This document shows positions 774 through 61,342 of a stretch of DNA of 64,000 nt, in pieces. Made by a program: the position numbers and the translations under genes. Position 1 is the first letter of the stretch; the number at the start of each line of letters is the position of its first letter. The DNA comes from a virus, in the UHGV virus genome UHGV-1579991; one strand, written 5' to 3'. The notes under the pieces were generated by a model that had not been told where the DNA came from, made no database searches, and saw only the letters and a list, made by a program, of their open reading frames with translations.

Positions 774-832
774 ATGTTATATGTTTGAATGTTGTAAGAT
801 ATGTACATATTACATACAAAACTCCTCAAATT

Positions 833-3802: not shown

Positions 3803-6800
3803 TTATCGAACAAGGAATGACGTACCAACAACCATATTTGGGATTGCCAAGCCATTGCCAGACTGGCTTACTGCAACTGTGCCACTTGTGTAACCTGACA
3901 ATGCTGCAGTAATTGTTGCCGACCTGCTGTTATCTGAACCCCAGTTATTTGCAGCGGACAATGTCGAACCACTGATTGTGAATGCGCCATTGTTCGATGA
4001 GTACGTTGGAGTAACCGCAGCATCTGATGTTGCAGACTGACCTGTCGTGTATGTTGTGACGGTTCGACCTGTCGTAGACAATGTTGCAGTGCCACCAGCA
4101 GCTCCAAAGCTTGTAACAGTTGAGCTAACAATCAGTGTCTTCGTAGTAGAAGTCACACTGTTGGCTTCCTGTGTAGCAGTGATTGCTTTTGAGCCAGTTT
4201 GACCATTCAACGCAACCGTCATATTGACTGTTGCAGTTCTTGCAGAACCAGCTGTTGTGCCACGATTTGCAGCAGTCAATGAACCTGTTGTACTACTGTT
4301 AAGTGTAAAGCCAGTAGTTGCAGCCATACTGTATGAAATCGTACCACCAGACGTAATAGTGGTTTTTGAACCACTTGTGTACGTTGCTGTCTGCGAATAT
4401 GCTGGCGTGCCTGTTGGAGTCTTTGTTGCACCTGCTGCAGCAAATGTTGCATATGATGTTGCTGTAGTAACTGTGACTGCACTGTATGATACACTGTTAG
4501 CTGCTTGATAAACATCAAGAGCTTTTGTAGCAGTCTTAGACCCTTCACCAGTAGCAGTTGCAGTCAAAGTGCCAATCTTTGTACGAGCTTTGACTGTAGT
4601 GCCAAGCGATGATGCGCTGACTTTTGTGCTATACGTAATGCTAACTGAGCCTGCCCTTGTGCTGCCAGACGTATATGTAATTGTCTGTGATGCACTGATG
4701 CCAGACATTGATGCGACTTCACCACCGCCAGCAGGAATATCTGATACAGAACCACCAGAGATTGTTACTGCGCCATATGTCGTAATTGCATTTGCAGCTT
4801 GGTACACATCTACTGCTTTTGTTCCAGATTTGCCATTGACTGTTACAGTAACAGTAGATGTTGTAATCTTTGTGCGAACTTTAGCAGTAGTGCCAAGCGA
4901 ACTACCAGACACTGCGCCAGTAGACGTTGTTACACCAGTGCCAGACCATGATTTGCTACCACCAGATGTAACTGTCTGTGTTGAGCCACTTGACCAAGTA
5001 ACTGACTGACTGAATGACACTGTAGGCGTAACTGAACCACCACCTGCAGGAATATCGCCATAAGTCATCGAAACTGTTGGCGTGCCATATGTAGCAGCAT
5101 TAGCATTTTGAGATGCAGTAGCAGTCTTTGTTCCACTGATAGTCTTTGTGCCTGCTGCGTTGTATGATGCAGTTGGCGTCCATGTAGCCTTTACAGTCTT
5201 TGTAACTGTTGGCGATGTAGTTGCGCCACTTGCAGTAGTGCCCTTTGATGATGCTGTTATAGCACCAGTAGATGCATTGAGTGCAGTGAACAATCCTGAT
5301 GCGCCTGGCCAGCTATATGATGTTGTAGTTGACAATGAACCATACGTAGATGCTGGCGCAGTAGTTGAAGTACTGCCACTACTAAAGTGGTATGTTACTG
5401 TGTTTGCACCATTTGACGGTGTAGATGTTCCGCCGCCTGCAGCAATTGCAGGATATGACATCGAACCAACTGCAATATTGAGTGCAGTCACATAGTTGCC
5501 TGCCTGATAAATCGTGGCAGACTTGCTGGCAGATTTGCCGTTCATTGTGACTTTAACAGTCAGTGTACCTGCAGTAGTCTGGTTAGATATTGTAGTACCC
5601 TTTGATTGCACAGTGACTGTCGATGTATACTCAATTGTTCCGCCGCTTGTCAGTGTTTCTGTCGTCTTTTCACCAGTAGCATATGTCGTAGTTTTGACCT
5701 GCGAGTAAGTTACTGTGCCAGATTTTACAGAACCGCCGCTTGCTGCAATGATAGTTGCAGACGGTGTCAAGTTAACTGTGATATCGCTATATGTAACTGT
5801 GCCGGCAGATTGAGCTGCTTGATAAACATCTGCAGCTTTTGATGCAGACTTACCATTGAGTGCTACTGTGACAGTCAATGTGCCAATCTTTGTTCGTGGC
5901 TTAACTGTTGTGCCAAGTGATGATGCAGTGATACCTGCTGCTGGACTGTATGAAATTGTTGCACCAGTAGTGATGTTCTGTGTTGAAGTTGATGTGTATG
6001 TTGCAGTCTGCGAATATGACACATTGCCGCTCTTAATTGTACCACCAGTTACAGGAATATCTGCTACAGTGAAGCTTGAAATTGTAACTGCGCCATATGA
6101 CACAGTGTTTGCAGCTTGCTTGACTGTGCAAGAACCAGTTTTTGTAACACCGCCCTCAGTGTATGAGCCGGAAATTGTAATGCTGCGTTCTGCGCCTACG
6201 ACTGTTGTGCGATTTGCTGCAGTTACTGTAGTAGTCGACAATGTAAAGCCAGTTGCTGAACCGCTAAGTGTTGCAGATACTGCAGCAGATGACGTTGAGC
6301 CTGATGCATATGTGTATGACGCTGTTGAAGTGATTGTAGTTGAACCGCCACCAGCTGCCAATGTTGCAGCGCCAGGTGTCAATGTCAAGCCATTCAGCGT
6401 CTTTGAGTTTGCAGTTTGTGTTGCAGTAGCAGTTTTTGTAGCAGATTTGCCATTGATTGCTACCGTAACTGTGACAGCATTTGAAGCATCAGTAGAGCCT
6501 ACATATGATGTGCCCATTGACGTTACAGTCAATGCGCCACTTGTTGTATTCAATGTCCAGCGTGACTTAGCAGTCATTGCATAAGACAATGTAGCGCCAC
6601 TTGTCAATGTGCCACCTGAGCCAGCTACACCATTCCAAGTCCAAACTTGTGAATATGAAACAGTTGGATTTGATGTACCACCAGCCGGAGCAATATTTGC
6701 ATATGAGAATGTTCCAATGACAGGCGTTTCATAGACTTTAACGCCTGCAGCTTGGTTGAACGTAATATCTTTTGATGCAGACTTGCCATTTGCAGTGACT

Positions 6801-13666: not shown

Positions 13667-15277
13667 TCAACATTCTACATACGAGCCATCAGTGTTTTCA
13701 ACAAGCACTTTGATGCTCAAGCCCACATCTGTGCCTTGCTGACTTCTTATCAATGGCACAATGTTTTTTGATCGTGGTGCAATGTTGCCCATATTGTCAA
13801 TGTGCACGTCATTGCCAATGAACTGCACATCTACTGATTTGATGACATCAAGCTCTTCAAGTTTTGCGATTGCAGCAGAACGACTAACGAATGTCGATGC
13901 ATTTGACCATGAGTCTTCTACAAATGCTTTTGCAGCATCAAGTAATTGTTGCTTGACGTCTTCTATATTTTGCAGTACTGCAGTCTTTTTGACAAGAATG
14001 AGCATCTGATAAAATTCAAGTTGCACAGTGTCAAATTGCACATCAGTTAGCAGCACATAGTCACCAGTGTTTTCAATAGCATTGTTCAGATATTGTCTAT
14101 CTATAGAGTCAATCGTAAATTCTGCTATTGGCAATGACCAGTAGTCATACACTATTGAGCCCGCTTTGACATACTTGTCTGCAATGTTAGGCACCAACAC
14201 GACATGAATTGTCTGAGTCTCTGTATTTGACCAGACATCAAGTATCTTGTACTGACCAAAACGTGACATGAATGCTCTGATTGAATCTGCTGAGTGCAAC
14301 ACAAGTGCCCTGTTAATTGAGCCTGCATGTGAACGTATAGATTCGATGTCTTCACCATTGTAACCACCTACAATGTCTGTCAGCTGTTCAATGACTAATA
14401 CACCCTTTGGACTTACTGCAGTAGTGTTTGCATCATACATACCATTGACCCATTCAAATGTTGCATCATTGTCAATCAAAATGTTTCCTGCATAGCCCTC
14501 ACATGCAGTGTATTCTACATTGACGACTGCATTTTGTGCAGGAATTTGACCAGCAGTGCCATTGCCAAACACAATCTGTAGTTTGCCATCATATGACCAG
14601 CGTTCAATGTATCCCTTGCTGTATCGGTCCATTTCATCAAACCCTGCATAGCGAGTCCACAGTTCATTACCAACTGTGACAGTCAATGAATCTTCAGATA
14701 CAATCAAGTTGCGTTCTTCGATAGTGAATGTTGTCATTGACTCACCATCAGAAATATATTGCTGAGACTTGCGTTCACCTTGTCTGACTGCGAATTCATA
14801 TCGTACACCTGTCAACTCATTGTTGATGTTGAGTTGCGCAAAGTCTTGATGTATATCGATGTAGTACATCAATGAGTTCTCTTTGCATTTAATTGCTGCG
14901 TATCGTTTAATGAACACAGTTGGACCAAGCTCTTTGACTGCGTCATATGAAAAACTCAATGCAATTTTGCCTGATGCTGCAATGCCACCAACGCATTTGT
15001 AACATGCAAGCTGCGCAAGGCCTCGTACAGATGCAGTTTGTTCTGCAGTAAGCAAGTTGTTTTCTTTTGTGCCTACTACAATTTGCGTAAAGATGAGTGA
15101 CGCAAGTTCTCTGAAACTCTGAACAAGAATTCCAAAAATTGTGTACTTACCATATTGTTTCTTTGTAGAGTTCAGCAAATTCTGCAGCCAAGTATCTATA
15201 GACTGTGACACACCTGAATATGACATTTGCATTTTCTGCATCCATGTCATATTGTCACGAGTGTTATTTGTGCGCAT
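13667..15277 (-). CDS. hypothetical protein, about 537 aa; start trimmed
   Basis: Track ORF 13667-15400 reads through the terminator hairpin and tandem repeats; start moved to the first ATG after the repeats (15277). Start is uncertain. Confidence 0.65.
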   Translation of the reverse strand: MRTNNTRDNMTWMQKMQMSYSGVSQSIDTWLQNLLNSTKKQYGKYTIFGILVQSFRELASLIFTQIVVGTKENNLLTAEQTASVRGLAQLACYKCVGGIAASGKIALSFSYDAVKELGPTVFIKRYAAIKCKENSLMYYIDIHQDFAQLNINNELTGVRYEFAVRQGERKSQQYISDGESMTTFTIEERNLIVSEDSLTVTVGNELWTRYAGFDEMDRYSKGYIERWSYDGKLQIVFGNGTAGQIPAQNAVVNVEYTACEGYAGNILIDNDATFEWVNGMYDANTTAVSPKGVLVIEQLTDIVGGYNGEDIESIRSHAGSINRALVLHSADSIRAFMSRFGQYKILDVWSNTETQTIHVVLVPNIADKYVKAGSIVYDYWSLPIAEFTIDSIDRQYLNNAIENTGDYVLLTDVQFDTVQLEFYQMLILVKKTAVLQNIEDVKQQLLDAAKAFVEDSWSNASTFVSRSAAIAKLEELDVIKSVDVQFIGNDVHIDNMGNIAPRSKNIVPLIRSQQGTDVGLSIKVLVENTDGSYVEC

Positions 15278-15304
15278 ATCAGTTAATTTGTTTGTATATG
15301 TATT

Positions 15305-15377
15305 CGAATGTGCACACATGAGAATAGGTCTCTTCGAATGTGCACATATGAGAATAGTCTCTTCGAATATGCGCACA
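15305..15377. repeat. tandem direct repeat, about 30-bp unit x 2.5 (cgaatgtgcacacatgagaataggtctctt)
   Basis: Read directly from the sequence; lies between a terminator hairpin and the next gene start. Confidence 0.7.
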
Positions 15378-15381
15378 AAAA

Positions 15382-15407
15382 GAAGAGCTTGCATATGCAA
15401 GCTCTTC
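15382..15407 (-). terminator. perfect palindromic hairpin (gaagagcttgcat/atgcaagctcttc) downstream of the gene ending at 15450
   Basis: About 12-bp stem; T-run follows on the minus strand. Confidence 0.55.
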
Positions 15408-15860: not shown

Positions 15861-17151
15861 TGACAGTCACAAGCACCTGTTTACCAGGTTCTTGTGATTT
15901 CATTTGACGTGACACTTCAATGAATGCATCAAGCAATTGCGCAGGTGAAACAGTCATGCCTTGTTCCATAAGCTGCTTGCGCAACGCTGCAATTTGCTGA
16001 CTTGCATTTTGGTCATTGCCAATTGACAACATTAGTGAATCAAGTCGACGTCCAAGTTCTGCAACTTTAAGCTGAATTGACTGCAATTGTGATGCTGAAT
16101 CTGCAAGTTGACTGATGGCTTGCATGTACAAATCAAGCGATACGCCATCAATATTCGATACTTCAATGGGCGCAAGCCCAACATTGCATGAGCTTACTCG
16201 AGTGCAAATGCGAAATGCAATTGCGTTTGCAGAGCCGTCATCAGACATTGCTTTCTTAACAAAGCGTTGCATGCTATAACCTCTGCCACCTGATTCTTCA
16301 TATCGATTGACAAAGAACAATGAATGCAAGCATCGTGTTTTGACAGATGGATTTGACTGCAGCCAAACATCGCAATACAATGCAATGCAATTGAATTCAA
16401 TGTCTTCGTTGAATGTTTCATAATCTGAGAACTGCAGCTTCAATCTGTCAACTGCACGACTCAGACTGTATCGACTTGCAGGTTCTACAATATCTGCATT
16501 GTCATAGATAGCTTTTGTGAATGTTGTGTCGCCATCTTCAAGACCCTGAGCATTTTCTTGAAATGCTTCTGGCACATAGCCAACTTCAATGCCTGGATAT
16601 GTTGCAGCAGTCCACTTTGCATTGCATCGCTTTGCATTTGCAGGTATGTACAGATACTGTTCTGTGTATGACATGCCATTAAGCTCAACTACACCAAAAT
16701 CTATCGCATTGCCAATGTATGTGACAAGCGGCTGCCAATCTGAACGTTGCACGAATGCTGCGCCATCTGCAGTAGACTCAAGTTCAAGAGCAGAAGCTTT
16801 TTGAAACATCTTCCACAACGCAGATTCTGCAAATGTTTCATTAGCAGACTCAAGCAATGAAGTTGCAAGCAATGAGCAGTTGTCGAGGTAGTTTTGACAC
16901 AATGCTGGCACAAGAGCATTTGCATCTTCGACCATCGTAGTGTCATTGAACTCTGATGGATGCACAAAGAACTTTTGCCCATTATGCTCAGCATCATTGT
17001 ACCAGTCTGGAATGTTCAAACAAGCAAACACAGATGGTGATATGACAATGTCATGATTCAATGTTGCATTTGTCAACAATGTATTTGTGTCAGTGAACAC
17101 AAGTACAGTGCCTTGTGTTAACTTTAATGGGTCGAAAATGGAAACTCTCAT
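15841..17151 (-). CDS. hypothetical protein, 436 aa
   Basis: Long ORF; no motif recognised. Confidence 0.7.
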   Translation of the reverse strand: MRVSIFDPLKLTQGTVLVFTDTNTLLTNATLNHDIVISPSVFACLNIPDWYNDAEHNGQKFFVHPSEFNDTTMVEDANALVPALCQNYLDNCSLLATSLLESANETFAESALWKMFQKASALELESTADGAAFVQRSDWQPLVTYIGNAIDFGVVELNGMSYTEQYLYIPANAKRCNAKWTAATYPGIEVGYVPEAFQENAQGLEDGDTTFTKAIYDNADIVEPASRYSLSRAVDRLKLQFSDYETFNEDIEFNCIALYCDVWLQSNPSVKTRCLHSLFFVNRYEESGGRGYSMQRFVKKAMSDDGSANAIAFRICTRVSSCNVGLAPIEVSNIDGVSLDLYMQAISQLADSASQLQSIQLKVAELGRRLDSLMLSIGNDQNASQQIAALRKQLMEQGMTVSPAQLLDAFIEVSRQMKSQEPGKQVLVTVNVQQTA

Positions 17152-17153
17152 TG

Positions 17154-17588
17154 TTATGAAATTGTCAATCGATGTTCTGCATCAGTTTGCTCACTACTGA
17201 ATGTCACTGTTACTGAGTGCTCAGTGTCATTGAAACTTGCAATGCACTCATGCTCAATGCCAGCGATTCGCAAATGCACATCAGCAAAAGTCTTGTCAAT
17301 TGTTGATTTGATGACATACGCATATTGCGGTACATGTGATTCAAGTCGAGTAACAGTCACATATTGATTGTATACTTGCTCTTCACTATTTACAAGCTCA
17401 GTCAATGTTGGCTTTACTACACTGACATGTGCAAACTGCAATGCTTTAAGTACTGCTTTGCTTCTTGAATCTACTTGTTGCTGATTTGACACCAGCAGTT
17501 TGATTGCAGAGTATGGTGTCTCTACATTAGCATCAATAGTATTGAGTGCAATAGGCTTTACAGTAGCCAAAAATTCTGCAAGTGTCAT
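17154..17588 (-). CDS. hypothetical protein, 144 aa
   Basis: ORF tightly packed with its neighbours. Confidence 0.55.
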   Translation of the reverse strand: MTLAEFLATVKPIALNTIDANVETPYSAIKLLVSNQQQVDSRSKAVLKALQFAHVSVVKPTLTELVNSEEQVYNQYVTVTRLESHVPQYAYVIKSTIDKTFADVHLRIAGIEHECIASFNDTEHSVTVTFSSEQTDAEHRLTIS

Positions 17589-17589
17589 A

Positions 17590-18090
17590 TTATGAAAGCT
17601 GAGCCGTAGTGTACCAAGTTAAGTCAGATTCATTGTACGTCAATGCAATTGTAAGAGCTTGACCAAGTTGCTGTGACAATTGCTTACATGAATCAATGAA
17701 TGCTTGCATATCTGCATATGACTTTGTGTAGAACATGCACCATTCTGTTGTATTGACTGCGACATTATGAACATCTGCAAGATGACAGACTTCTACAGAT
17801 GATACATTAAAGTCTGAGCCATCTTCATCAACATGATGCACATTGTTTGCGCACCAATATTGATACAGACGAGCTTTGTCTGATGCAGTCATGTCAAACT
17901 GCATGCGTTGAGCAATTGATTCATCGATGTTATTAATGAATTGCTTTGCTGATTTTGACTCAAGCATCGCATGATGCAGTGTATGATTTGCATGCCAGTC
18001 TGGAGTGCCGATTGCTACGCTAAGCTGATTTTCAAACACAAACTGCTGTGCTTGAGCTTCTTCGTAGCATTGTGTCCATGTCTTTGTCAT
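17590..18090 (-). CDS. hypothetical protein, about 166 aa; start trimmed
   Basis: Track ORF ran into the sigma gene; start moved to ATG 18090 (MTKTWTQCYEEAQ...). Confidence 0.55.
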   Translation of the reverse strand: MTKTWTQCYEEAQAQQFVFENQLSVAIGTPDWHANHTLHHAMLESKSAKQFINNIDESIAQRMQFDMTASDKARLYQYWCANNVHHVDEDGSDFNVSSVEVCHLADVHNVAVNTTEWCMFYTKSYADMQAFIDSCKQLSQQLGQALTIALTYNESDLTWYTTAQLS

Positions 18091-18208
18091 GTTGTTTATC
18101 TTAAGTTTGTATATGTACAAATAATGTTGATGTTGTATTGAAGCATCGCAAAATAAGGCCAGACTACTCGGTTGAGCTTGCCTGACCTTTTCAAATGCAT
18201 TTTGCTTA

Positions 18209-19105
18209 TTACAGTGTTCCGCAAAGCAATTCACGTAAATCCATGCCAGCTTGTGTACTATACTGAGCAATAAGATTACGTTCTGAATCAGACATGCTCC
18301 AATAAATCTTATGCTGAGCTCTACGAATAATAGTATGAATGCCAGATGTGCTACAATTGAACTTCTTTGCAAGTTCTGCATGAGTTAGCAAATCAGCATC
18401 ACCAAGGCCATACACATGTGTGAGTACAAGCTTTTCATTTTGAGTGAGTTGTTCAAATGCTCTTTGCAGAATCTTTGTGTTGCGTTTGTGAGCATCCTCG
18501 ATTTCAAGAACTTCTTGGCCTGTTTTGAAGTCTGACCTCAAATCATTCTGAACTGGTGACCATGCATCACCATCTTTGTCAAGTGTAGTGTCATCCTTGC
18601 TGGTGAATTGTTTGCCTTCAAGAGCTCTTTCATATGCTCCACGAATGCCAGTAGATAATTGTTGACTTGTCAAATTGAGTTCATCAAGTACATATTTCTT
18701 AATCCAAGGATATGCATATGTGCTAAACTTTGCTTCACGAACTCCTGCAGGCAATACGCCTTCTACATAATTCTTGGCTGCTATTGACAATCCAAGATTG
18801 CCTGCTTGAATGACATCATCCAGCGGAACTGAGCGTTTGCCAGATGCGAACCATAAGCTTCGTGCAACTGATATGACCAGTCTTAAGCAAGATTTGATAA
18901 GAGCTTCACGATTTTCTTGAGTCTTCTTGAATCGAGTAACATCACAATATCGCTTTGCAGTAGCCAGCGATTTGACTTCTTCAGGAGTAAGCTCATTCTC
19001 CATCCTCATTTGCTTGAGCTCCTCCTTTGTGTATAGACGTTCTCTTGTTATTCTACCTACGTCCTTTACGTAGCCTTGATTGATTTGTGAATTTGAACCT
19101 GCCAT
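18209..19105 (-). CDS. sigma-70 family RNA polymerase sigma factor, 298 aa
   Basis: Region-2-like FSTYAYPWIKKYV and region-4-like HTH (LTHAELAKKFNCSTSGIHTIIRRAQHKI). Confidence 0.65.
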   Translation of the reverse strand: MAGSNSQINQGYVKDVGRITRERLYTKEELKQMRMENELTPEEVKSLATAKRYCDVTRFKKTQENREALIKSCLRLVISVARSLWFASGKRSVPLDDVIQAGNLGLSIAAKNYVEGVLPAGVREAKFSTYAYPWIKKYVLDELNLTSQQLSTGIRGAYERALEGKQFTSKDDTTLDKDGDAWSPVQNDLRSDFKTGQEVLEIEDAHKRNTKILQRAFEQLTQNEKLVLTHVYGLGDADLLTHAELAKKFNCSTSGIHTIIRRAQHKIYWSMSDSERNLIAQYSTQAGMDLRELLCGTL

Positions 19106-19133
19106 GGTTGTGTAACTTATTTAGTTTTAATTT

Positions 19134-19162
19134 GTTATATAAATTTAATCATTTTTTGTCAC
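19134..19162 (-). promoter_or_regulatory. sigma70-like promoter candidate (GTGACA-N17-TATAAC) upstream of the sigma factor gene
   Basis: Hexamers read on the minus strand with 17-nt spacing, about 30 nt upstream of ATG 19105. Confidence 0.4.
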
Positions 19163-19208
19163 ACGTGAAAATGTTTTGCACATTATTTTCATATAAAGTG
19201 TAAAAAAG

Positions 19209-20267
19209 TTATGAACATTTTGTTAACAATGCATGACCACAATCATAAACTGCAACATAGCCAGTGTTAAGCATCTCTTGCTCATCTTGGCCGGCGTCTA
19301 CAATATGTTCTTTGCTGTTAAGTTTGACCCAGTGCTTGCAGATTGTTGACTTATCATCTGACAATTTAGGGTTAATGCAGAAGTCTGTTGAGCTTATTGT
19401 GTTGTCGAGATGCTGTTTGATGATATTGACAACTTGTTCAGGCGTCATCCAATCAAACACTGTTATGCAAGTGTAGCCATGCTTGAGGGCAAGCTGAGTT
19501 TTGTTGAAGTGATAGTCGAATGGGAGCGCATAGTTATGCTTAGACTTGCCAATTGCATATGCATAGCCATACGTAGAGTTGTGACTGATTGTTGGGCAAA
19601 TTTCAATCAGCAAATGCTTATAATGCAGGTCATATGACTGGCGTTCAATATTGACGTCATCACAGTCAAATGCAAGCCCAAGTTCTTGTAGCAGCAAAGT
19701 TTGCCATCGTTTGTTTGTAGCTGATATGACATTTTTGTGAGCATTGCGACATTTTTGATGCATACAAAAGAATGGGACACCATATTTTTGCTGCATCAAT
19801 TTAGTGTCAATGCCTGCTGCATTGCCATAACGTTCAAGCTTCGTTGCTCTAATTTTGTCAGCATCACCCCAAATGTTGCCATATCGTTTGCGCTTTGTGT
19901 CTTGAGACTTCTTAATGTTGCCACTGCGGTTGCCATAAATAAGTTCCTTTGATTGACACGCATGTTCAGCAGCATCTGGCCCATATATGTGACCGTATTT
20001 TTGAAGCTTAATTTCATTGATACGTTCTACTGGGCCATTTGGATGACCATAGCGTTCTTGTTTGATGCGTTTTGTGTGCTCAATTGTTGACTTTAATGCA
20101 AGCTTTGACGTAACGCCAAATTTGCGCAAACAGCCTATTCTAATATTGAAACTACGTTTAATATGCGATGCTTCTATTTTTGTAACAGCCAATTGCAATG
20201 CAGCATCACGTTCAGTTTCAAGCATGCAAATTTGTTCATCAATTGTCATAGCATCAAACCATTTCAT
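19209..20267 (-). CDS. repeat-rich (RYG-x-G) putative free-standing homing endonuclease or DNA-binding protein, paralog 1
   Basis: Tandem roughly 18-aa (R/K)YG repeats and a conserved C-terminal domain (LIEICPTISHNSTYGYAYAIGKSK) shared with 35445-36719 and 48935-50126. Confidence 0.7.
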   Translation of the reverse strand: MKWFDAMTIDEQICMLETERDAALQLAVTKIEASHIKRSFNIRIGCLRKFGVTSKLALKSTIEHTKRIKQERYGHPNGPVERINEIKLQKYGHIYGPDAAEHACQSKELIYGNRSGNIKKSQDTKRKRYGNIWGDADKIRATKLERYGNAAGIDTKLMQQKYGVPFFCMHQKCRNAHKNVISATNKRWQTLLLQELGLAFDCDDVNIERQSYDLHYKHLLIEICPTISHNSTYGYAYAIGKSKHNYALPFDYHFNKTQLALKHGYTCITVFDWMTPEQVVNIIKQHLDNTISSTDFCINPKLSDDKSTICKHWVKLNSKEHIVDAGQDEQEMLNTGYVAVYDCGHALLTKCS

Positions 20268-21837
20268 TCAACTTGTCAACATTCTTTTTGGCATCTGCAC
20301 TTTGTACAAATGCATAGACGTTGTCATAGACTTTGCTAATTGCTGCATCTGTATAGTCATAGAAGTTGTGTCGAGTTCTTGAAGTTCTACCACCTTTGAT
20401 GCCGAGTGATGTTTTGTCAGAATCTGATGGTTTCCAATATGTTCGCCCAAACCCAGTAGATAAAATCATACTTTCCACACCAGACCTATCTCGAGGCATA
20501 GCATGCTTCAAATGGCAAGTTACAATGAAGTCAGTTGGAAAGTCATCATAGCCAAGCTCACTTGATGCGGGTTGTATGTCGGTCTTCGTCAAGATAAGAT
20601 TGCCAATGCTTGCTATTGGTCGAAGTGGGTTTCCTAATAGCAAGTGCCATTCGCCGATGGCGTCGCCCTTCAACAAACTATTCATAACTGGAATTGCTGG
20701 CCGACCAATAGTGTTCAAGAATTTTGCGACTGCAAAGCGCTGAAATGCAAGTTTAGCAATCTGTTGCAATTTTTGTTTTGCTGCTTCTTTTCCACCACCG
20801 CTTGCATTCATAATGTTTTGGGCAATACCTTTGAAGAAGTCTGTGATTGAGTTGAATGAACCATCAAGTGCATCTTGAATAACTGCAGATTCAAGTTCAA
20901 GCGCTTTGTTCCAGAATATTGAAGGCTGACCGCCGACCCAATATCGACCCCCACCCCAAAACTTTGCATCATTGTATGTGCATTGCATCACATTGCTCAA
21001 CAAGTCAAGCATTGCTGTTTTGGGATTGATTCCATCAATTGACTTCAATGAATAAAAGAATTTGACAGTCAATTCATGCTCAAAATTCAAGCCGACATCA
21101 CGAATATGTGTTTGCGTAATTGAATCAATCGGGCCATAAACTTTGTTATGGTCATGTGTAGGGTCTATTGACAGTCGTGCTTTGCCACGCATTTGGTCTT
21201 TTGCATACACTGGGTCCATCAATTTTGCTACTCGGCCCATCCAGCCACTGATGCCATAATTGCCTCCACTGTCACCACGCATTTCGCCTTGCTCCAATGC
21301 TGCAGACAATTCTTTCCAACGCATGCCAAAACTGAAGCTCAACAAATCTTCAAGTTTGTTGTTTTCGCCATCAAACCACGTAATCATATGGGCGATTTCT
21401 GGTGTTTGCTGAACTGTTGTGTTGAAGATGTCATCTTGGCATGGCTCAGCAAATCTGCGCAATGTTATGAGTCTGTTGTTCGGGATTTGACCAAGAAATC
21501 TACAATACGCAAAGTCTTGCCAATCATATGTTGATGCGCCAATGGGGTTGTTGATGATATTTGCTGCAGTAGGCGTCAAGTATTGCAGGCCTTGCAAGTC
21601 TTGGTCAAAGTACACAGTTTTGCCATCAGGCAATTGCGGTGCTGCAAATAGATTCCATGCATTGAACAATGATTGCACACCTTGTTTTGATGCGTCTTCT
21701 GCACCACGAGGCATATCCGCATTGAGCTTCTTTTCATAAAAACCATGCTCATAATCTGTTTCTTGTGCAAATGCGCCAGTCAGAGTGCTACTATCTGCAT
21801 TGAGCTTATTGTCTTTTGGCGGAGCTATTGTAGCCAT
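20254..21837 (-). CDS. hypothetical protein, 527 aa (possibly a virion structural protein)
   Basis: Long ORF; no motif recognised. Confidence 0.7.
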   Translation of the reverse strand: MATIAPPKDNKLNADSSTLTGAFAQETDYEHGFYEKKLNADMPRGAEDASKQGVQSLFNAWNLFAAPQLPDGKTVYFDQDLQGLQYLTPTAANIINNPIGASTYDWQDFAYCRFLGQIPNNRLITLRRFAEPCQDDIFNTTVQQTPEIAHMITWFDGENNKLEDLLSFSFGMRWKELSAALEQGEMRGDSGGNYGISGWMGRVAKLMDPVYAKDQMRGKARLSIDPTHDHNKVYGPIDSITQTHIRDVGLNFEHELTVKFFYSLKSIDGINPKTAMLDLLSNVMQCTYNDAKFWGGGRYWVGGQPSIFWNKALELESAVIQDALDGSFNSITDFFKGIAQNIMNASGGGKEAAKQKLQQIAKLAFQRFAVAKFLNTIGRPAIPVMNSLLKGDAIGEWHLLLGNPLRPIASIGNLILTKTDIQPASSELGYDDFPTDFIVTCHLKHAMPRDRSGVESMILSTGFGRTYWKPSDSDKTSLGIKGGRTSRTRHNFYDYTDAAISKVYDNVYAFVQSADAKKNVDKLNEMV

Positions 21838-22382: not shown

Positions 22383-23000
22383 TTACAAATGCACATTAAC
22401 GCTTGTAACAAGGTCGCAATCAATCAATGCTTTGAGCGTGTCAATTTCATTGTATCCGAATGCGCGTGTAGCAGCAAGCACGTGATTGACATCGACTGCA
22501 GCAGTAATGTCAACTACAACAGTCTTGTCATCTTCAAGTGGCTGCAAACGCTTGATGAGTTGATGCAGCATATCATCTGCTGGTACACTTGGCTGTTGCA
22601 CAGATTCAGCAACATAAGTGGTTTTGACTGGCTGTTGAGCAGGATACGTGGGCACAGGTGACACGGGTTCAATGGGTCGTTCTGTTTGCGGTGCTACAAT
22701 TGGCTGAGTTGGCAAAATGGTCTCTGACACAGTGCTGCCATCTGCTGCAGTTGTAGATACACTTGGAATCACTATTGGTTGAGAAAACACGTCATCTTGA
22801 GGGCGATTCCAAGTTTCAATTTCAGACAATGCATAAAGACGATTTTGACTGTCCCATGCCTTGTCAGCTTCTTCGTCAATTGCAACAATTGTCCGAATTT
22901 CTGCCGTTGCTGGTCTATCGCCATTTTCAAGCTGTTCAATGACTCTGATAGGCGCTATTGATGTTCGTGCCATATTTGGATGGTTTTTTATATTGTACAA
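22383..23000 (-). CDS. hypothetical protein with Pro-rich linker, about 200 aa
   Basis: ORF; true start may be the internal MARTS methionine. Confidence 0.55.
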   Translation of the reverse strand: MYNIKNHPNMARTSIAPIRVIEQLENGDRPATAEIRTIVAIDEEADKAWDSQNRLYALSEIETWNRPQDDVFSQPIVIPSVSTTAADGSTVSETILPTQPIVAPQTERPIEPVSPVPTYPAQQPVKTTYVAESVQQPSVPADDMLHQLIKRLQPLEDDKTVVVDITAAVDVNHVLAATRAFGYNEIDTLKALIDCDLVTSVNVHL

Positions 23001-23098
23001 CGCAAAGCATGCTTTTGCATCTGTGCATGCTATTTTATGCTAAGTACCCTGTGTAAAATAGTGAAATGCTTATTTTACGCAGGGTGCATCAAGTTAAA

Positions 23099-26000
23099 CT
23101 ATCGTACGATAAAGGGCTTGCTGATATCTTCAATAATCATTGAGCCGATGCCATGCAGCTCTTGAGTAACCTCGACAGATACATCTTGTGCAGTGTTGTA
23201 TGAGCACTTGAATGCTGCAACTCGACTAAATGCGTCAATGTCTGAATAACTGAGTTCATCAACTTGTATTGAGATTTCACCAATTGCTGGCGTAGTCTTT
23301 GATGGTGTAATTGTGATGTCATGTAGCCAGCCCGGATTGCCAACTATGACTGCTGTCAATGATTCGCCATCAATTGGGTTGATGATTTCATAGTTGAAGC
23401 TTAAAGTCTTTGCAGTATCATCAGTTGTTGCTGATGCAGGCGTAATGTTTATTGTTGTTACGCCCTTAGCAGCTTGGATTACTTGTGCAGTGACATCTTG
23501 AGCATTGATGTGAGAGAACTTAACTGAGCAGCTACGTTGTTCTGTTGTTAAGTTGCGGTCACATTCAATAGTCAAGTAGCCCTTGCCAGTGTTGTCATCA
23601 TATTCAAAGTTTGTATCGATAAATGCACCATCATTGTCAAGAACTGCATATGACAATTGCTGACCTGCAATTGGATTGCCAACAGTGATTTCGAATTGTG
23701 CTTGAGTGTCAGTTGACTTCAATTGAGCTGTCATTGGCTCAACAATTATCGTTGATACACCTTGAGCTGCTTGTGTGATGCTGACCGTTACATTGTCAGC
23801 AGTCATGTATGACAGTCTCAAGTATAAGTTACGAGTAGCTGTTGCAGTGTTGATGTCAAGCGCAAATTGTATTGTGCCAGCTGACATGTTTACTGCAGGT
23901 TCGCCAACAAAGCCAGAGCCCTCTGCTGCAACTGTTAATGTTTCGCCTTCAATAGGATTGCTGATGTTAAAGTTAACTGTGAATGAACCACCATTAGCTG
24001 CTGCATTGATTGTCAGTGGTTCAGCATTGATAACTGTAGCTTCTTTAGCTGCCTGAGTAAGCAAGACTGCTACATTGTCAGCAGTTGGATATTGCAGTAC
24101 AATGTTTGCTGTACGAGCACTTGTTTGCAATGTCTTGTCATAATCAAATGTAATCTTGCCATCAGCAACTTGAACATTGTGAATCCAGCTTTCTGTTGCA
24201 TATGCAGTGACTGCAGCACCAGCATAGCCATTACGAATTTGATATGTAATTTCAGATGAACCGCCAGCAGCATTAAGTGACATAGAGCTTGTGACAATGA
24301 TTTCAGGCCTTGTTGATGCACCTGTACTGTATTGAACTACAGATGCAATTACACGAGGCTCAAATATGACAGCATTTGCAGAGCCGCCAAATGTCGGTGT
24401 TGCAATCACATAGATTGGCCAAACGCCACTTGATGCGACATTACGTAAGATTGCTTGATAATGCAGTTCATTGCATGCATCTTGCAATTCACTCCACGTT
24501 TTTGCAGTGTCAATTGATGTCAAGCATGCTGGCAATACTGCGCATGTTGATGGCTTATCAGCATCAATTTGTGTTGCAGCGCCACCTGATACTGGTCTGT
24601 AGCTCAAGTCGACTTTAACAGATGCATAGCCATTGCCATACACAATGAATGGCACAGTGATATCAAGTAAAATATCAACAGTCGCAGGCATGTTCAGATA
24701 TGCTGGCAGCGGTACAAGTGTTTGCATTGCTGTCGTGCCTGGCACATGGTCATCAAATGATTCGACATACACAGGTGGCGTCAAATCATCTTTGTGAGCA
24801 TATTCTGCATGAGTGTGGTCTGAATGTGACACTGTGCTTGCATAGCCAGACCCAGCAAAGTCTTTGTTGAATGCAGACTTCTTTGCTTCTTCAGTCAATC
24901 TGCCGGAGCCATCATATGCCAGCACAGTATTTGATGCGCCGACACCTGCTGCAAGATGATTTGAGCCATCAATGAAGACATGTTTGTATTGACATTCAAA
25001 CAAATGAGCATCAAAATTGTCAAATATCGAATTGAACAACTTTTTGACTGCAGATGCTGTAGGCAGATGCTTGTTTGCATTTGCGCCATCGATAATGATG
25101 CTTGACCAATTGTCTGAGCTCTTGAAGATGCTAAGAAGCATATCAACAACTTTGCCAGTAGCATCTGTGCCAAGAACACTTGCACCGGGCAGTTTCATCA
25201 ATTGCAAGTCGACTGTTGCAGCAAGTTTAAGCAACTGCTTTGTCAATGTCAGAATGTCTGTGACAACTCCAGCATCTGACAATGCTGCAATGCGATATGA
25301 CTGATTGATGAGTTGCGCAAACTTGTATGCACGAATGAATGATTCTCGCTTTGATTCTGCATCCAAGCCTTTTGCTAAGAACAACTCATCGTACTTCAGA
25401 TTTGCATATGACAATATGTCAAGCTCATTGACTGCAGATGTAAAATGGTTGCGAAGCCTAATGCCCTCATATGACTGCCACAATGTAGCCAAATCAGCAA
25501 ATGACTTGACATGCGAATCATCTGATGCAAAGCCAAACACAAGACCACTATTAAAGTCATTTTGCAGCAGCATATGTGGAAATGCATCAAGACCTGGCAA
25601 CTGGTTCTTTTTGTCAGCATCAAGACGATTCAATGTTCTTTGCGTGAGGTCATAATAGTAATATGGATTGCCCAATATCTGCACGACAGGCTTTGCTGCT
25701 TTGTTGTTTGCATTGCCAAGACCATCAATTTGTGTATCACTCGGTGCAAGCAGAATAACTGAGCTATCGACATTATTATATCGAGGCACGCTTTCAAGCC
25801 CTATTGATAAAGCTCCTGTATGTTTGTTTGAGTAGTTGTTGTCGATTTCTGCACCAGGCTGACCATCTGCTGCAATGTTGAACATCGCTGCATATGACTT
25901 GATTGTACCGCCGTACTTTGTTTTGATGAGCTCTTCAATGATTTGCGTAATGATGACATTCAAGTTATCATTGTCACTCGTCAACAACTGCAAGCCTGTG

Positions 26001-26506
26001 AATTGCCACCATTGTGCATCATCTGATGACGCGTCATACCAGTACACTTTGCCATCTGGTGCAATGACCCAGTCTGCGTATGACAAAGCGTCTGTATGCA
26101 AAATGTTGCAAAACGCAGGTTTGTTTGCATCTGAACAGAACTCATTGAATGCTGCAGCATCGACAACTTTTGCAGTACCTGCGTCATTTTGCGTAGCTGA
26201 CCAATCACTGCCAAATGTTGCATTGATATCAGCAAGTGATGCATACATAATGCGGTTGCCTCGATAGCCATCGAAGCCAGGCAAACCACGGTCACCAGTT
26301 TCACCAATACGCCCCTTAAATAGGGGTGAATTCACTATACGTGAAAAGTTATAGTTGAGCGCCTCGATAAGCGCTGGGTACGAATCAACTTGTAACTTTT
26401 TCAGTACAATTGGCTGTGCTTTATGTTCTGCAGACATATTGTTCAGATATTTTGCTTTGTATATGTATTCGAGACTTTGTTGAGAATCGTCTGTCACTAT
26501 GTGCAT
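23099..26506 (-). CDS. fibre-like protein, 1135 aa: short collagen-like Gly-X-Y stretch plus C-terminal Ig-like repeats
   Basis: GRIGETGDRGLPGFDGYRGN near the N-terminus; 4-5 C-terminal repeats ending in TQAAK/TQAAQ, the same inter-domain motif as the 1442-aa protein. Confidence 0.7.
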   Translation of the reverse strand: MHIVTDDSQQSLEYIYKAKYLNNMSAEHKAQPIVLKKLQVDSYPALIEALNYNFSRIVNSPLFKGRIGETGDRGLPGFDGYRGNRIMYASLADINATFGSDWSATQNDAGTAKVVDAAAFNEFCSDANKPAFCNILHTDALSYADWVIAPDGKVYWYDASSDDAQWWQFTGLQLLTSDNDNLNVIITQIIEELIKTKYGGTIKSYAAMFNIAADGQPGAEIDNNYSNKHTGALSIGLESVPRYNNVDSSVILLAPSDTQIDGLGNANNKAAKPVVQILGNPYYYYDLTQRTLNRLDADKKNQLPGLDAFPHMLLQNDFNSGLVFGFASDDSHVKSFADLATLWQSYEGIRLRNHFTSAVNELDILSYANLKYDELFLAKGLDAESKRESFIRAYKFAQLINQSYRIAALSDAGVVTDILTLTKQLLKLAATVDLQLMKLPGASVLGTDATGKVVDMLLSIFKSSDNWSSIIIDGANANKHLPTASAVKKLFNSIFDNFDAHLFECQYKHVFIDGSNHLAAGVGASNTVLAYDGSGRLTEEAKKSAFNKDFAGSGYASTVSHSDHTHAEYAHKDDLTPPVYVESFDDHVPGTTAMQTLVPLPAYLNMPATVDILLDITVPFIVYGNGYASVKVDLSYRPVSGGAATQIDADKPSTCAVLPACLTSIDTAKTWSELQDACNELHYQAILRNVASSGVWPIYVIATPTFGGSANAVIFEPRVIASVVQYSTGASTRPEIIVTSSMSLNAAGGSSEITYQIRNGYAGAAVTAYATESWIHNVQVADGKITFDYDKTLQTSARTANIVLQYPTADNVAVLLTQAAKEATVINAEPLTINAAANGGSFTVNFNISNPIEGETLTVAAEGSGFVGEPAVNMSAGTIQFALDINTATATRNLYLRLSYMTADNVTVSITQAAQGVSTIIVEPMTAQLKSTDTQAQFEITVGNPIAGQQLSYAVLDNDGAFIDTNFEYDDNTGKGYLTIECDRNLTTEQRSCSVKFSHINAQDVTAQVIQAAKGVTTINITPASATTDDTAKTLSFNYEIINPIDGESLTAVIVGNPGWLHDITITPSKTTPAIGEISIQVDELSYSDIDAFSRVAAFKCSYNTAQDVSVEVTQELHGIGSMIIEDISKPFIVR

Positions 26507-41894: not shown

Positions 41895-41970
41895 TTGTTT
41901 TGATGCAAAATGCAAAACAATATAAAATTGTTTTGATGCAAAATGCAAAACAATATAAAATTGTTTTGAT
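41895..41970. repeat. tandem direct repeat, 33-bp unit x about 2.3 (ttgttttgatgcaaaatgcaaaacaatataaaa)
   Basis: Read directly from the sequence; intergenic, upstream of the Cys-rich gene; each unit carries two TGCAAAA half-sites. Confidence 0.8.
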
Positions 41971-41972
41971 AT

Positions 41973-44554: not shown

Positions 44555-44608
44555 TGAAGTTTATTGTTATATAGTGATATAATACAACAAAAATCTCAAA
44601 TTTGCACA

Positions 44609-56273: not shown

Positions 56274-56310
56274 ATTGTCGAAATCTTGTTTGTGTTATAT
56301 GTACACAAAA

Positions 56311-60134: not shown

Positions 60135-60235
60135 ATGTAGAGATTTTTGTAGTTTGTATCAATTGCATTCTATATCAATTGCATCTTGTATCAAATACAT
60201 TATATTGATATATGATAATTGTACTACAAAAATCC

Positions 60236-60339
60236 CAAATTTGCACACTTTGATAATCAAAAGTGCAAACAAAATTCAAAGTTATATTGTACATCATAAA
60301 GTGCAAATTTGCACTTTATGATGCTGCAAAATGTTTGCA
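60236..60339. promoter_or_regulatory. cluster of TTTGCAC/GTGCAAA half-sites including a 20-bp perfect palindrome aaagtgcaaatttgcacttt (about 60298-60317)
   Basis: Read directly from the sequence; AT-rich intergenic region that also carries two atcaattgcat direct repeats (about 60158-60184). Confidence 0.4.
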
Positions 60340-61300: not shown

Positions 61301-61342
61301 ATCCTTGACTTGGTCCTGTAAACAGGGTTGTCAACATGCATT

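What the first reader, a model, noticed from the sequence alone, without database searches (positions are those of the whole stretch)
18209..19162. Phage-encoded sigma-70 family factor with its own sigma70-like promoter inside the structural block
The 298-aa protein has recognisable region 2 and region 4 segments, and is preceded by GTGACA-N17-TATAAC. terL has a similar TTGAGA-N17-TATAAT. The phage therefore appears to use host sigma70-type promoters for some genes while encoding a sigma factor that could redirect RNA polymerase to late genes.
Basis: partly seen in the sequence, partly recalled or inferred. Interest (0 to 1): 0.4.

Follow-up and report, generated by a model that had tools for sequence, protein, structure and literature searches.

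The report
Jumbo-phage sigma factor gene cassette

Summary
The 298-aa ORF at 18209-19105 (-) is a sigma-70-family protein. Pfam regions 2 and 4 and TIGR02937 all pass their curated cut-offs, and the fold matches sigma factors in RNA polymerase holoenzymes. The window comes from an uncultured jumbo myophage of the PAU / MA9V-1 / PTm1 group. Orthologues in those phages are already annotated as sigma factors, so this is a new member of a known kind.

The gene sits in a conserved structural block as its own cassette, with a conserved upstream element and its own terminator.

GTGACA-N17-TATAAC is present. On its own it is unremarkable, because 9% of shuffles give an equal match. It does lie in a roughly 35-bp block conserved in register in 8 lineages (rTGAAw-N9-TAAWTTTA-tAtAwC). 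The "-10" usually ends in C rather than the canonical T.

The terL "sigma-70 promoter" is an accident of a palindromic copy of a recurrent single-element motif, RTACATATA. This motif lies about 20-27 nt before the start codons of structural, packaging and some other genes, often just after a terminator.

A separate bipartite class, GTGCAA-N17-TAYAAT, precedes tRNA genes and early-type genes.

Which class this sigma reads is untested. I favour the late RTACATATA class.

The PAU orthologue carries a depositor's note calling it an internal capsid protein, which raises the possibility of a virion-delivered sigma.

The parts
18209..19105 (-). Sigma-70-family gene, 298 aa. Layout: region-1.2-like N-terminus (~22-55), region 2 (~62-145), poorly ordered linker (153-196, no detectable region 3), region 4 (~200-270), and a clade-specific two-helix C-terminal tail (273-295).
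19134..19162 (-). Conserved upstream control element: GTGACA (19162-19157), 17-nt spacer containing TGATTAAATTTA (19151-19140; TAAATTTA box at 19147-19140), then TATAAC (19139-19134). Consensus over 8 lineages is rTGAAw-N9-TAAWTTTA-tAtAwC.
   Evidence: chance estimate
18149..18189 (-). Intrinsic terminator after the sigma gene: GGUCAGGC...GUCUGGCC hairpin followed by UUAUUUUG.
   Evidence: dG -27.9 kcal/mol, z = -4.1; 0 of 200 shuffles fold as well. Equivalent hairpin plus T-run in all relatives.
18105..18121 (-). Single-element promoter-like motif (class II) TTTGTACATATACAAAC. It lies directly after the sigma terminator and serves the next gene, 17590-18090, which heads the module running to the baseplate wedge.
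   Evidence: orthologous sites in L005, L009, L011, L012
21852..21868 (-). Class II motif TTGGTACATATCCTAAA after a terminator. It serves the 527-aa gene 20254-21837 and the overlapping homing-endonuclease-like gene.
   Evidence: orthologous sites in L005, L009, L011, L012
19209..20267 (-). Homing-endonuclease-like gene (352 aa) inserted between the 527-aa gene and the sigma cassette. It is a paralogue of 35445-36719. It is absent at this position in L005, L007, L009 and L011 and present (434 aa) in the 99% relative L012.
15290..15306 (-). Class II motif CGAATACATATACAAAC before the baseplate-wedge gene. The corrected start is ATG at 15277, giving 536 aa as in L012.
26455..26471 (-). Class II motif CGAATACATATACAAAG before the large structural-block gene. 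The likely true start is ATG at 26436.
56291..56307 (-). Class II motif TGTGTACATATAACACA after a terminator, before gene 54678-56273. Further class II sites on the minus strand: 60898-60914, 48900-48916 and 41963-41979.
22992..23020 (-). Bipartite class I promoter-like site ATGCAA-N17-TACAAT, 18 nt before ATG 22973 of the ~196-aa gene. The orthologous positions in L012, L005 and L011 carry GTGCAA or TTGCAA-N17-TACAAT or TATAAT.
60218..60314 (-). Two class I sites, GTGCAA-N17-TACAAT at 60286-60314 and 60218-60246. Other class I sites on the minus strand: 62578-62606 (before the tRNA cluster), 48918-48946 (before the clamp-loader gene, in tandem with a class II motif) and 44579-44607.

Best explanation
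The ORF encodes a working sigma-70-family specificity subunit that binds the host core RNA polymerase and redirects it to phage promoters.

The gene is an autonomous cassette. It has its own conserved bipartite-looking control element (rTGAAw-N9-TAAWTTTA-tAtAwC) and its own intrinsic terminator. It is wedged between two structural-gene units, each of which starts with a different, single-element motif (RTACATATA, no -35 partner, ending about 20-27 nt before the ATG). The sigma gene can therefore be switched on independently of, and probably before, its late neighbours.

My preferred reading is that this sigma reads the RTACATATA class, which precedes baseplate, fibre-like and large structural genes, terL and a few others. 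The canonical-looking GTGCAA-N17-TAYAAT class, which precedes tRNAs, small early-type genes and the clamp-loader gene, would be read earlier by another holoenzyme, presumably the host's.

Shown: sigma-family membership, the cassette structure, and the existence and conservation of three motif classes. Inferred: that the motifs are promoters, their timing, and which holoenzyme reads which class.
For: Family membership:
- Pfam r2 and r4 and TIGR02937 pass their cut-offs.
- PHROG sigma family hit at 5e-25.
- Residue-level alignment to primary sigma regions 1.2-2.4 and 4.2.
- An AF2 model with confident sigma2 and sigma4 domains matches sigma chains in holoenzyme structures, Foldseek probability 1.0.

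Cassette:
- The order ~200 aa, ~160 aa, ~520 aa | sigma | ~170, ~175, ~436, ~135 aa | baseplate wedge is conserved in five diverged contigs.
- A terminator follows the sigma gene.
- The upstream element is conserved in register in 8 lineages and occurs once in the 64 kb.

Class II motif:
- The exact 9-mer TGTACATAT occurs at 5 loci. Four are intergenic and the fifth lies within the first 31 nt of an ORF whose start appears over-called.
- GTACATA is 23-fold enriched in intergenic DNA.
- A weight matrix trained only on 12 sites from relatives puts 11 of its top 14 window hits 9-18 nt before a start codon.
- Sites are conserved at orthologous positions.
- There is no information content upstream of about -5 from the core, so no -35 partner.
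- The core lacks a canonical -10, because no register has both A at -11 and T at -7.

Link to this sigma (indirect):
- Region 2.3-2.4 (KFSTYAYxWIKKY) is the segment best conserved between this protein, PAU gp1 and MA9V-1 ORF23. TACATA-type motifs also recur in those phages' intergenic regions.
- The region 4.2 recognition helix is not conserved across the wider group.
- The residues that read -12 in primary sigmas are substituted.
- No gp55- or gp33-type late factor was found among 31 small ORFs of the window.

Precedent: the phiEco32 gp36 sigma reads a single element, tAATGTAtA (PMC8948821). RNA-polymerase-less jumbo phages commonly encode sigma factors (PMC7824862; PMC13282480).
Against: - No expression or biochemical data exist.
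- The protein keeps a well-conserved region 4. In the phiEco32 / 7-11 comparison a sigma with region 4 reads bipartite promoters and the sigma without it reads the single element. That favours the GTGCAA-N17-TAYAAT class for this sigma.
- A gp55-like late factor could be encoded outside the 64-kb window.
- Class II motifs also precede the clamp-loader gene and a gene beside the DNA ligase, so 'late' is not a clean label.
- No clear terminator separates the upstream late unit from the sigma gene, so read-through could make it a late gene as well.
- The host is unknown, so which class is 'host-type' cannot be settled.
Confidence: 0.45

Rival explanations
1. Same functional sigma, different targets. 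It reads the bipartite GTGCAA-N17-TAYAAT class, acting as a middle- or early-class factor. The single-element RTACATATA late class is read by another factor, for example a T4 gp55/gp33-type system encoded outside the window.
For: - Regions 2 and 4 are both intact and conserved within the clade.
- Class I sites have a fixed 17-nt spacer and a conserved -35, GTGCAA in 7 of 9 clear sites, and are kept at orthologous positions.
- In phiEco32-like phages the sigma with region 4 reads bipartite promoters and the sigma without it reads a single element.
- If the host is a Bacteroidota member, its primary sigma would not read this class (PMC6847099), so a phage factor would be needed.
- The phage has T4-like replication genes such as a clamp loader. 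T4 late promoters are single-element (established knowledge).
Against: - The -10 of class I is canonical (A at -11, T at -7), whereas this sigma has non-canonical residues at the positions that read -12 and form the tryptophan wedge.
- No second sigma-like gene was seen in the window or in the stretches of the MA9V-1 and PAU records examined or in the MA9V-1 paper's ORF table.
- The region 4.2 recognition helix is not conserved in PAU or MA9V-1, although a class-I-like site exists in PAU.
Confidence: 0.28
2. The sigma homologue is also, or mainly, a virion component. It would be packaged inside the capsid under the vertices, as the PAU depositors' note says for the orthologue gp1, and ejected with the DNA so that host core polymerase can start on phage promoters without new protein synthesis.
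For: - GenBank JQ362498 and its RefSeq copy NC_019521 label PAU gp1 'internal capsid vertex protein (mango) subunit 2'.
- gp1 is the orthologue: 31% identity, E = 4e-20, including the KFSTYAY.WIKKY motif, with sub-threshold r2 and r4 hits.
- PAU capsids show strong internal density under the five-fold vertices (PMC5646251).
- The gene sits in a structural block in every relative.
- Read-through from the upstream late unit looks possible.
Against: - The only evidence is an unpublished annotation note. The held literature says nothing about it.
- In the window clade the gene carries its own non-late control element and lacks a strong class II motif; its best matrix hit ranks 30th at 7.2 bits, against 11.3 bits or more for accepted sites.
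- The conserved N-terminus aligns to sigma region 1.2 rather than looking like a capsid-targeting peptide.
- The 527-aa neighbour is not homologous to PAU 'mango subunit 1' gp10.
Confidence: 0.15
3. One reading: GTGACA-N17-TATAAC and TTGAGA-N17-TATAAT are ordinary host sigma-70 promoters.
For: - Both hexamer pairs are present with 17-nt spacers.
- The terL site matches 11/12, which only 0.4% of shuffles of its 59-nt region reach.
- The sigma-gene '-35' keeps T2, G3 and A4 in register across lineages.
Against: - The terL -35 is lost and its -10 becomes TATAAC in relatives whose TerL is 94% identical, while the palindromic class II core is kept.
- The sigma-gene '-10' ends in C or A in 6 of 8 lineages, and its spacer holds an invariant 8-mer, which is unusual for a plain sigma-70 promoter.
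- Sigma-70-like matches are not enriched over shuffles.
- Only 1 of 56 genes has even GGA in -20..-4, and the cultured relatives infect Flavobacteriia.
Confidence: 0.1
4. The protein has lost sigma function and is only a structural or DNA-binding protein.
For: The PAU note. The PAU and PTm1 orthologues score below Pfam thresholds.
Against: In the window clade the core-binding and melting motifs of regions 2.1-2.3 and the region 4 helix-turn-helix are conserved and pass curated cut-offs.
Confidence: 0.04

Closest known systems
Sigma-like proteins of related jumbo myophages: Sphingomonas phage PAU gp1, Chryseobacterium phage MA9V-1 ORF23, Tenacibaculum phage PTm1 gp168
   Same: - Orthologues by sequence: 28-31% identity, E = 1e-20 to 4e-20 for PAU and MA9V-1.
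- Same KFS(T/A)YAY.WIKK region 2.3-2.4 motif.
- Same kind of genome: TerL 32-49% identical.
- In PTm1 the downstream order sigma, ~180 aa, ~465 aa, ~120 aa, baseplate wedge is the same.
- Already annotated as RNA polymerase sigma factor in MA9V-1 and in RefSeq PAU.
   Different: - The window protein is shorter (298 aa against 362 and 387) and lacks their extra C-terminal regions.
- It scores better against the sigma profiles. PAU is sub-threshold, MA9V-1 hits r2 only, and PTm1 has no Pfam hit.
- The MA9V-1 and PTm1 genes are preceded by perfect Bacteroidota-type TAnnTTTG boxes. The window clade has TAAWTTTA, with A in place of the final G.
- PAU gp1 carries a virion-protein note.
Sigma factors of phiEco32-like phages (phiEco32 gp36; Salmonella phage 7-11 gp47)
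   Same: - Phage-encoded sigma-70-family proteins that bind host core polymerase and drive middle or late genes from phage-specific promoters.
- gp36 reads a single roughly 9-bp element, tAATGTAtA, with the start site 6-8 bp downstream. This resembles the RTACATATA class here in form.
- gp47 reads a bipartite element with a 16-nt spacer (PMC8948821).
   Different: - No detectable close sequence relationship.
- Different phage type: podophages of enterobacteria against a jumbo myophage.
- The promoter assignments there are experimental; here they are inferred.
T4 late transcription (gp55 sigma, gp33, sliding clamp; late promoter TATAAATA)
   Same: A single-element, -10-only, AT-rich promoter before structural genes in a phage with T4-like replication and capsid genes (established knowledge; jumbo-phage survey PMC7824862).
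   Different: gp55 is a minimal sigma without region 4. This protein has regions 1.2, 2 and 4. No gp33-like or gp55-like ORF was found in the window.
Bacillus phage SPO1 gp28 and gp33/34 sigma cascade
   Same: Phage sigma factors replace the host sigma in sequence to time gene expression (recalled from established literature, not tested here).
   Different: No sequence relationship was tested. Different host phylum and different promoter sequences.

Membership tests
Sigma-70 family of RNA polymerase sigma factors | Region 2 domain (core binding, -10 recognition and melting) | tested here: met
   PF04542 scores 33.2 bits against a cut-off of 24, residues 69-143. It aligns to LRLV..IA.. / DLIQEG.LGL / KFSTYA..WI of primary sigmas.
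Sigma-70 family of RNA polymerase sigma factors | Region 4 helix-turn-helix domain | tested here: met
   PF04545 scores 26.2 bits against a cut-off of 24.1, residues 216-267. It aligns to region 4.2 of cyanobacterial SigA.
Sigma-70 family of RNA polymerase sigma factors | Whole-protein superfamily model and sigma fold | tested here: met
   TIGR02937 scores 67.3 bits against a cut-off of 42.9. All of the top 50 Foldseek PDB matches listed are sigma chains, probability 0.99-1.0. TM-scores are low (~0.2) because the predicted inter-domain arrangement differs.
Sigma-70 family of RNA polymerase sigma factors | Binds core RNA polymerase and confers promoter-specific initiation | not testable with these tools
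   Needs biochemistry.
Primary or primary-like sigmas (groups 1-2: RpoD, RpoS) | Region 3 present; score above the subfamily cut-offs | tested here: not met
   No PF04539 hit. RpoD_Cterm scores 52.4 against 354, RpoS 50.4 against 378.7, cyanobacterial RpoD 66.3 against 384.5. Residues 153-196 are predicted disordered.
ECF sigmas (group 4) | Only regions 2 and 4, with a short linker and no region 1.2 | tested here: inconclusive
   Only r2 and r4 are detected. However, residues ~25-60 align to the region-1.2 part of RpoD, RpoS and RpoH models, the linker is about 55 aa, and a 30-aa C-terminal tail is present. No ECF subfamily model was matched.
T4 gp55-type late sigma | Minimal sigma with a region 2-like part only and no region 4 | tested here: not met
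   Region 4 is present. The PHROG hits are general sigma-factor families.
Escherichia coli-type sigma-70 promoter (for the DNA element upstream of the gene) | -35 TTGACA-like hexamer and a 17 +/- 1 nt spacer | tested here: met
   GTGACA matches 5/6 with a 17-nt spacer. T2 (8/8), G3 (6/8) and A4 (8/8) are conserved in register.
Escherichia coli-type sigma-70 promoter (for the DNA element upstream of the gene) | -10 TATAAT with A at -11 and T at -7 | tested here: not met
   TATAAC here. The last base is C or A in 6 of 8 lineages and A at position 2 is found in only 5 of 8. The site is rejected by the consensus scan.
Bacteroidota primary-sigma promoter (-33 TTTG / -7 TAHHTTTG) | -7 box with the near-invariant T-12, A-11, T-8, T-7, T-6 and G-5 | tested here: not met
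   TAAWTTTA matches 5 of the 6 near-invariant positions, but G-5 is A in all 8 lineages (consensus from PMC6847099 and PMC9723704). There is no consistent TTTG about 20 nt upstream. MA9V-1 and PTm1 sigma genes do have full TATATTTG and TATTTTTG boxes.
PAU 'internal capsid vertex protein (mango) subunit 2' | Orthology to PAU gp1 | tested here: met
   BLASTP E = 4e-20, 31% identity over residues 61-267.
PAU 'internal capsid vertex protein (mango) subunit 2' | Physical presence inside the capsid | not testable with these tools
   This rests only on a depositor's note. No paper in the held library describes it.

The most novel reading that the evidence does not exclude
The sigma factor is packaged inside the capsid, as the PAU depositors' note says for the orthologue, and is co-injected with the DNA. 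The phage would then bring its own promoter-specificity subunit and could use non-host promoters, such as GTGCAA-N17-TAYAAT, from the first minute of infection. It would be a sigma-factor counterpart of the virion RNA polymerases of N4-like and phiKZ-like phages.
Probability: 0.12. Interest if true: 0.75.

Novelty: new member of a known kind. Interest (0 to 1): 0.33.

Why it matters
Phage-encoded sigma factors in jumbo phages that lack their own RNA polymerase are expected and already annotated, so the gene itself is ordinary. The added value is a testable regulatory map for a poorly studied, mostly uncultured jumbo-phage group related to PAU, MA9V-1 and PTm1. The map has three parts:
- an autonomous sigma cassette with a conserved control element;
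- a single-element RTACATATA class in front of structural and packaging genes;
- a canonical-looking bipartite class in front of tRNAs and early-type genes.

If the PAU note holds, a virion-borne sigma would be a new way for a phage to take over host transcription.

Tried and rejected
- Megablast of 17000-21000 against GenBank phages found nothing.
- PHROG and Pfam scans of the immediate neighbours found nothing.
- PDB sequence searches with the 527-aa and 436-aa neighbours found nothing useful.
- My first reading of a MAFFT alignment of the sigma upstream regions suggested that the -35 was not conserved. Re-anchoring on the invariant TAAWTTTA box showed a conserved rTGAAw hexamer in register, so I withdrew that conclusion.
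- I looked for host-type Bacteroidota TAnnTTTG boxes. They are only weakly enriched in intergenic DNA (12 of 80 matches, where intergenic DNA is 9% of the window) and only four lie near start codons. This neither confirms nor excludes a Bacteroidota host.
- I used the sigma profile to look for phage contigs binned with host genomes. It returned only cellular sigma genes from Cloacimonadales, Verrucomicrobiota and one Klebsiella MAG, so it gave no host information.
- Literature searches for the PAU 'mango' and 'banana' proteins and for virion-packaged sigma factors found nothing specific.
- I checked whether the 527-aa neighbour is PAU 'mango subunit 1' gp10. It is not.
- ARAGORN's tmRNA call at 60909-61351 was not supported by Rfam.
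- I searched for a gp55- or gp33-like late factor among 31 small ORFs and found none. This covers only the 64-kb window.
Full report
**What is at the coordinates**

The minus strand carries an ATG-initiated ORF at 18209-19105 encoding 298 aa. It passes the curated Pfam thresholds for Sigma70_r2 (residues 69-143, 33.2 bits against 24) and Sigma70_r4 (residues 216-267, 26.2 against 24.1). It also passes the NCBIfam superfamily model TIGR02937 (67.3 against 42.9) and hits phrog_351 'RNA polymerase sigma factor' at 5e-25. Every subfamily model (RpoD, RpoS, RpoH, FliA, SigK and others) falls far below its cut-off, and region 3 is not detected.

PDB sequence alignments show the usual region 2.1-2.3 motifs (LRLVISVA, DVIQAGNLGL, KFSTYAYPWIKKY) and a region 4.2 helix-turn-helix. 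They also show non-canonical residues where primary sigmas read the -12 base and form the tryptophan wedge. An N-terminal stretch of roughly residues 25-60 aligns to region 1.2 of RpoD, RpoS and RpoH models.

An AlphaFold model built on ten family members has mean pLDDT 67.7. The sigma2 and sigma4 domains are confident and the 153-196 linker is disordered. It matches only sigma chains in holoenzyme structures.

A profile search of 1.84 billion representative proteins finds only about ten with E <= 1e-30, after which the hits merge into the general sigma-70 superfamily. This is a small phage clade within a very large family.

**Where the window comes from**

The window has no near-identical GenBank phage. 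TerL and the sigma both find the same distant relatives: Chryseobacterium phages MA9V-1 and MA9V-2, Sphingomonas phage PAU, and Tenacibaculum phages PTm1 and PTm5, all jumbo myophages of 213-227 kb.

Nearly all genes are on the minus strand. They include a baseplate wedge, a tape-measure-like protein, TerL, an NAD-dependent ligase, a clamp loader and a topoisomerase II, plus seven tRNAs.

Closer relatives exist only as metagenome contigs, with sigma 55-99% identical.

Only 1 of 56 genes has even GGA in positions -20 to -4. Lack of Shine-Dalgarno sequences is typical of Bacteroidota (PMC6847099), and most cultured relatives infect Flavobacteriia. However, the PAU intergenic regions I inspected also show no obvious Shine-Dalgarno sequence, although its listed host is an alphaproteobacterium. 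The host phylum of this phage therefore remains an inference.

**The gene is a cassette inside a conserved structural block**

Five diverged contigs share the same order: ~200 aa, ~160 aa, ~520 aa | sigma | ~170, ~175, ~436, ~135 aa | baseplate wedge. PTm1 shares the downstream half.

In the window, and in its 99% relative, a 352-aa (434-aa) gene is inserted between the 527-aa gene and the sigma. It is a 42%-identical paralogue of the DUF7487 / homing-endonuclease-like gene that lies divergent from terL. It is therefore a mobile insertion, and it left the sigma control region intact.

A strong hairpin with a U-run follows the sigma gene (dG -27.9 kcal/mol, z = -4.1). Every relative has an equivalent terminator there.

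GTGACA-N17-TATAAC is present at 19162-19134. Taken alone it is weak evidence:
- 9% of shuffles of the 103-nt region give an equal or better match.
- Generic sigma-70-like sites are not enriched, at 35 observed against 32 +/- 6.7 expected.
- TATAAC lacks the T at -7.

Comparison changes the picture. All relatives share an invariant TAAWTTTA box. Anchoring on it shows the following:
- The '-10' hexamer is TATAAC, ATAAAA, CTATAC, ATAAAT, AATATC, TATATT, TATATC or CAATAC.

The element differs from a canonical sigma-70 promoter in two ways: the last base of the '-10' is T in only 2 of 8 lineages, and the spacer contains an invariant 8-mer.

TGATTAAWTTTA occurs once in the 64 kb. TAAWTTTA resembles the Bacteroidota -7 box TAHHTTTG but always has A in place of the near-invariant G. 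The MA9V-1 and PTm1 sigma genes are preceded by perfect TATATTTG and TATTTTTG boxes. A related string, TTTAyATAAC(ATAAC)AAA, recurs just upstream of the sigma gene in PAU and L033 and upstream of two small genes next to it in MA9V-1.

TTGAGA-N17-TATAAT at 36729-36757 matches 11/12 and is one of only three such sites in the window. In two relatives whose TerL is 94% identical, the -35 is replaced by unrelated sequence and the -10 reads TATAAC. What is conserved there is TATATGTACATATAA[CT]ACGAATATTCAA. The TATAAT is the edge of the palindrome ATATGTACATAT, which presents the same motif to both divergent genes.

**A recurrent single-element motif (class II)**

- The exact 9-mer TGTACATAT occurs at five loci in the window. 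Four are intergenic and the fifth lies within the first 31 nt of an ORF whose start appears over-called.
- GTACATA is 23-fold enriched in intergenic DNA.
- The sites lie about 20-27 nt before start codons and often directly after a terminator hairpin.
- The same motif sits at orthologous positions in the relatives: before the ~520-aa gene, before the gene after the sigma, before the baseplate wedge, and before a large structural gene.
- A weight matrix trained only on 12 sites from relatives places 11 of its top 14 window hits 9-18 nt before a start codon, where about 0.06 would be expected.
- The information content is confined to about 12 positions, (t)(g/a)TACATATA.AA, with nothing in the -35 region.
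- No register of the core has both A at -11 and T at -7, so it is not a canonical -10.
- TACATA-type motifs are also visible in PAU, PTm1 and MA9V-1 intergenic regions.
- The sigma gene's own upstream region scores only 7.2 bits and ranks 30th. The sigma gene therefore does not carry a good class II site.

**A bipartite class (class I)**

GTGCAA-N17-TAYAAT has a G just before the -10 and T at -7 in every copy except 62578 (TATATT). It precedes the tRNA cluster, two small genes, the clamp-loader gene (in tandem with a class II motif) and the ~196-aa gene in the structural block. The orthologous sites in L012, L005 and L011 are kept. This class is the real 'sigma-70-architecture' promoter set of the phage.

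**Mechanism**

That this protein is a functional sigma which reprograms host core polymerase is well supported by sequence, fold and precedent (PMC7824862, PMC13282480, PMC8948821). Which promoter class it reads is not shown.

I prefer the single-element class II, for these reasons:
- Class II is non-canonical and needs a special factor.
- Region 2.3-2.4 is the part of the protein conserved across the whole PAU-to-window group, as is the TACATA core.
- Region 4.2 is not conserved across that group, and class II has no -35 partner.
- No gp55/gp33-type factor is seen in the window.

The main counter-argument is that region 4 is intact. In phiEco32-like phages, possession of region 4 goes with bipartite promoters, which favours class I.

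My estimates for the target class are about 0.45 for class II, 0.28 for class I, and the remainder for other or both.

**The virion-protein lead**

The GenBank record of PAU, in the depositors' own note, calls the orthologue gp1 'internal capsid vertex protein (mango) subunit 2' and gp10 'subunit 1'. The PAU capsid paper reports strong density under the five-fold vertices but names no proteins. I found no publication on this.

Three observations count against it for this clade:
- The gene has its own non-late control element.
- Its conserved N-terminus is region-1.2-like.
- Its 527-aa neighbour is unrelated to PAU gp10.

**Verdict**

The sigma factor is real, and orthologues are already annotated as sigma factors in related phages. 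Its upstream hexamers mark a genuine conserved control element, but one that is not a textbook sigma-70 promoter. The terL 'promoter' is a by-product of a phage-specific motif. The phage has at least three promoter-like classes whose assignment to host or phage sigma needs experiments.

Noticed in passing
window 19209-20267 (-) and 35445-36719 (-): Two paralogous genes (42% identity) with repeated x[RK]YGxxxG motifs and a weak DUF7487 / homing-endonuclease PHROG hit. One is inserted just upstream of the sigma cassette and the other lies divergent from terL. The copy next to the sigma is absent in four relatives and longer (434 aa) in the 99% relative. They look like free-standing mobile endonuclease genes.
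   Followed up: partly
window 799-876 and 1573-1650: 78-nt inverted repeats, 86% complementary and 696 nt apart. Each arm carries a run of 8-10 G or C. The outer end of the left arm overlaps a palindromic TGTACATAT motif. This could be an invertible segment or a small mobile element.
   Followed up: no
window 60909-62524 (-): A cluster of seven tRNA genes (Gly, Thr, Glu, Ser, Leu, Pro, Gln) is confirmed by Rfam. ARAGORN also calls a permuted tmRNA at 60909-61351, which Rfam does not support at gathering threshold. It is probably a false call.
   Followed up: partly
whole window: Shine-Dalgarno sequences are essentially absent: 1 of 56 genes has GGA in positions -20 to -4. Leaders are short and A-rich. 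This fits a Bacteroidota-like host, but the PAU intergenic regions inspected look the same.
   Followed up: partly
window 13667-15400, 22383-23000, 23099-26506, 47916-48959, 60398-60934, 17590-18381 (all -): The mechanical ORF starts (often TTG, or the most upstream ATG) run through promoter motifs and terminators. Likely true starts are ATG at 15277, 22973, 26436, 48884, 60883 and 18090. The apparent overlap of the 263-aa ORF with the 3' end of the sigma gene is an artefact.
   Followed up: yes
L009:13429-13521, L009:15811-15885, L009:10910-11080: In one relative, several intergenic regions of the same structural block carry short tandem repeats (for example GTATCGTTATAA x4, AATGCACATATTAATA-like units and a roughly 33-nt duplicated block) that are absent from the window.
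   Followed up: no
L002 (PAU) 94-1182 and 4439-6070: The depositors' notes call the PAU sigma orthologue gp1 and gp10 'internal capsid vertex protein (mango)' subunits 2 and 1, and gp9 'capsid decoration protein (banana)'. I found no publication describing this.
   Followed up: partly
window, one of 31 small ORFs (not identified individually): A dihydrofolate reductase (phrog_316, 2.7e-47) is encoded among the small ORFs. No late-sigma or gp33-like family was hit.
   Followed up: no
L023-L028 (Cloacimonadales MAG chromosomes): In a scan of one genome per species, seeded with two conserved peptide patterns from the sigma, the confirmed cellular matches to region 2 (35-48% identity over about 70 aa) are mostly sigma genes of Candidatus Cloacimonadales. 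This may hint at the origin of the gene or at the host lineage. The evidence is weak.
   Followed up: no
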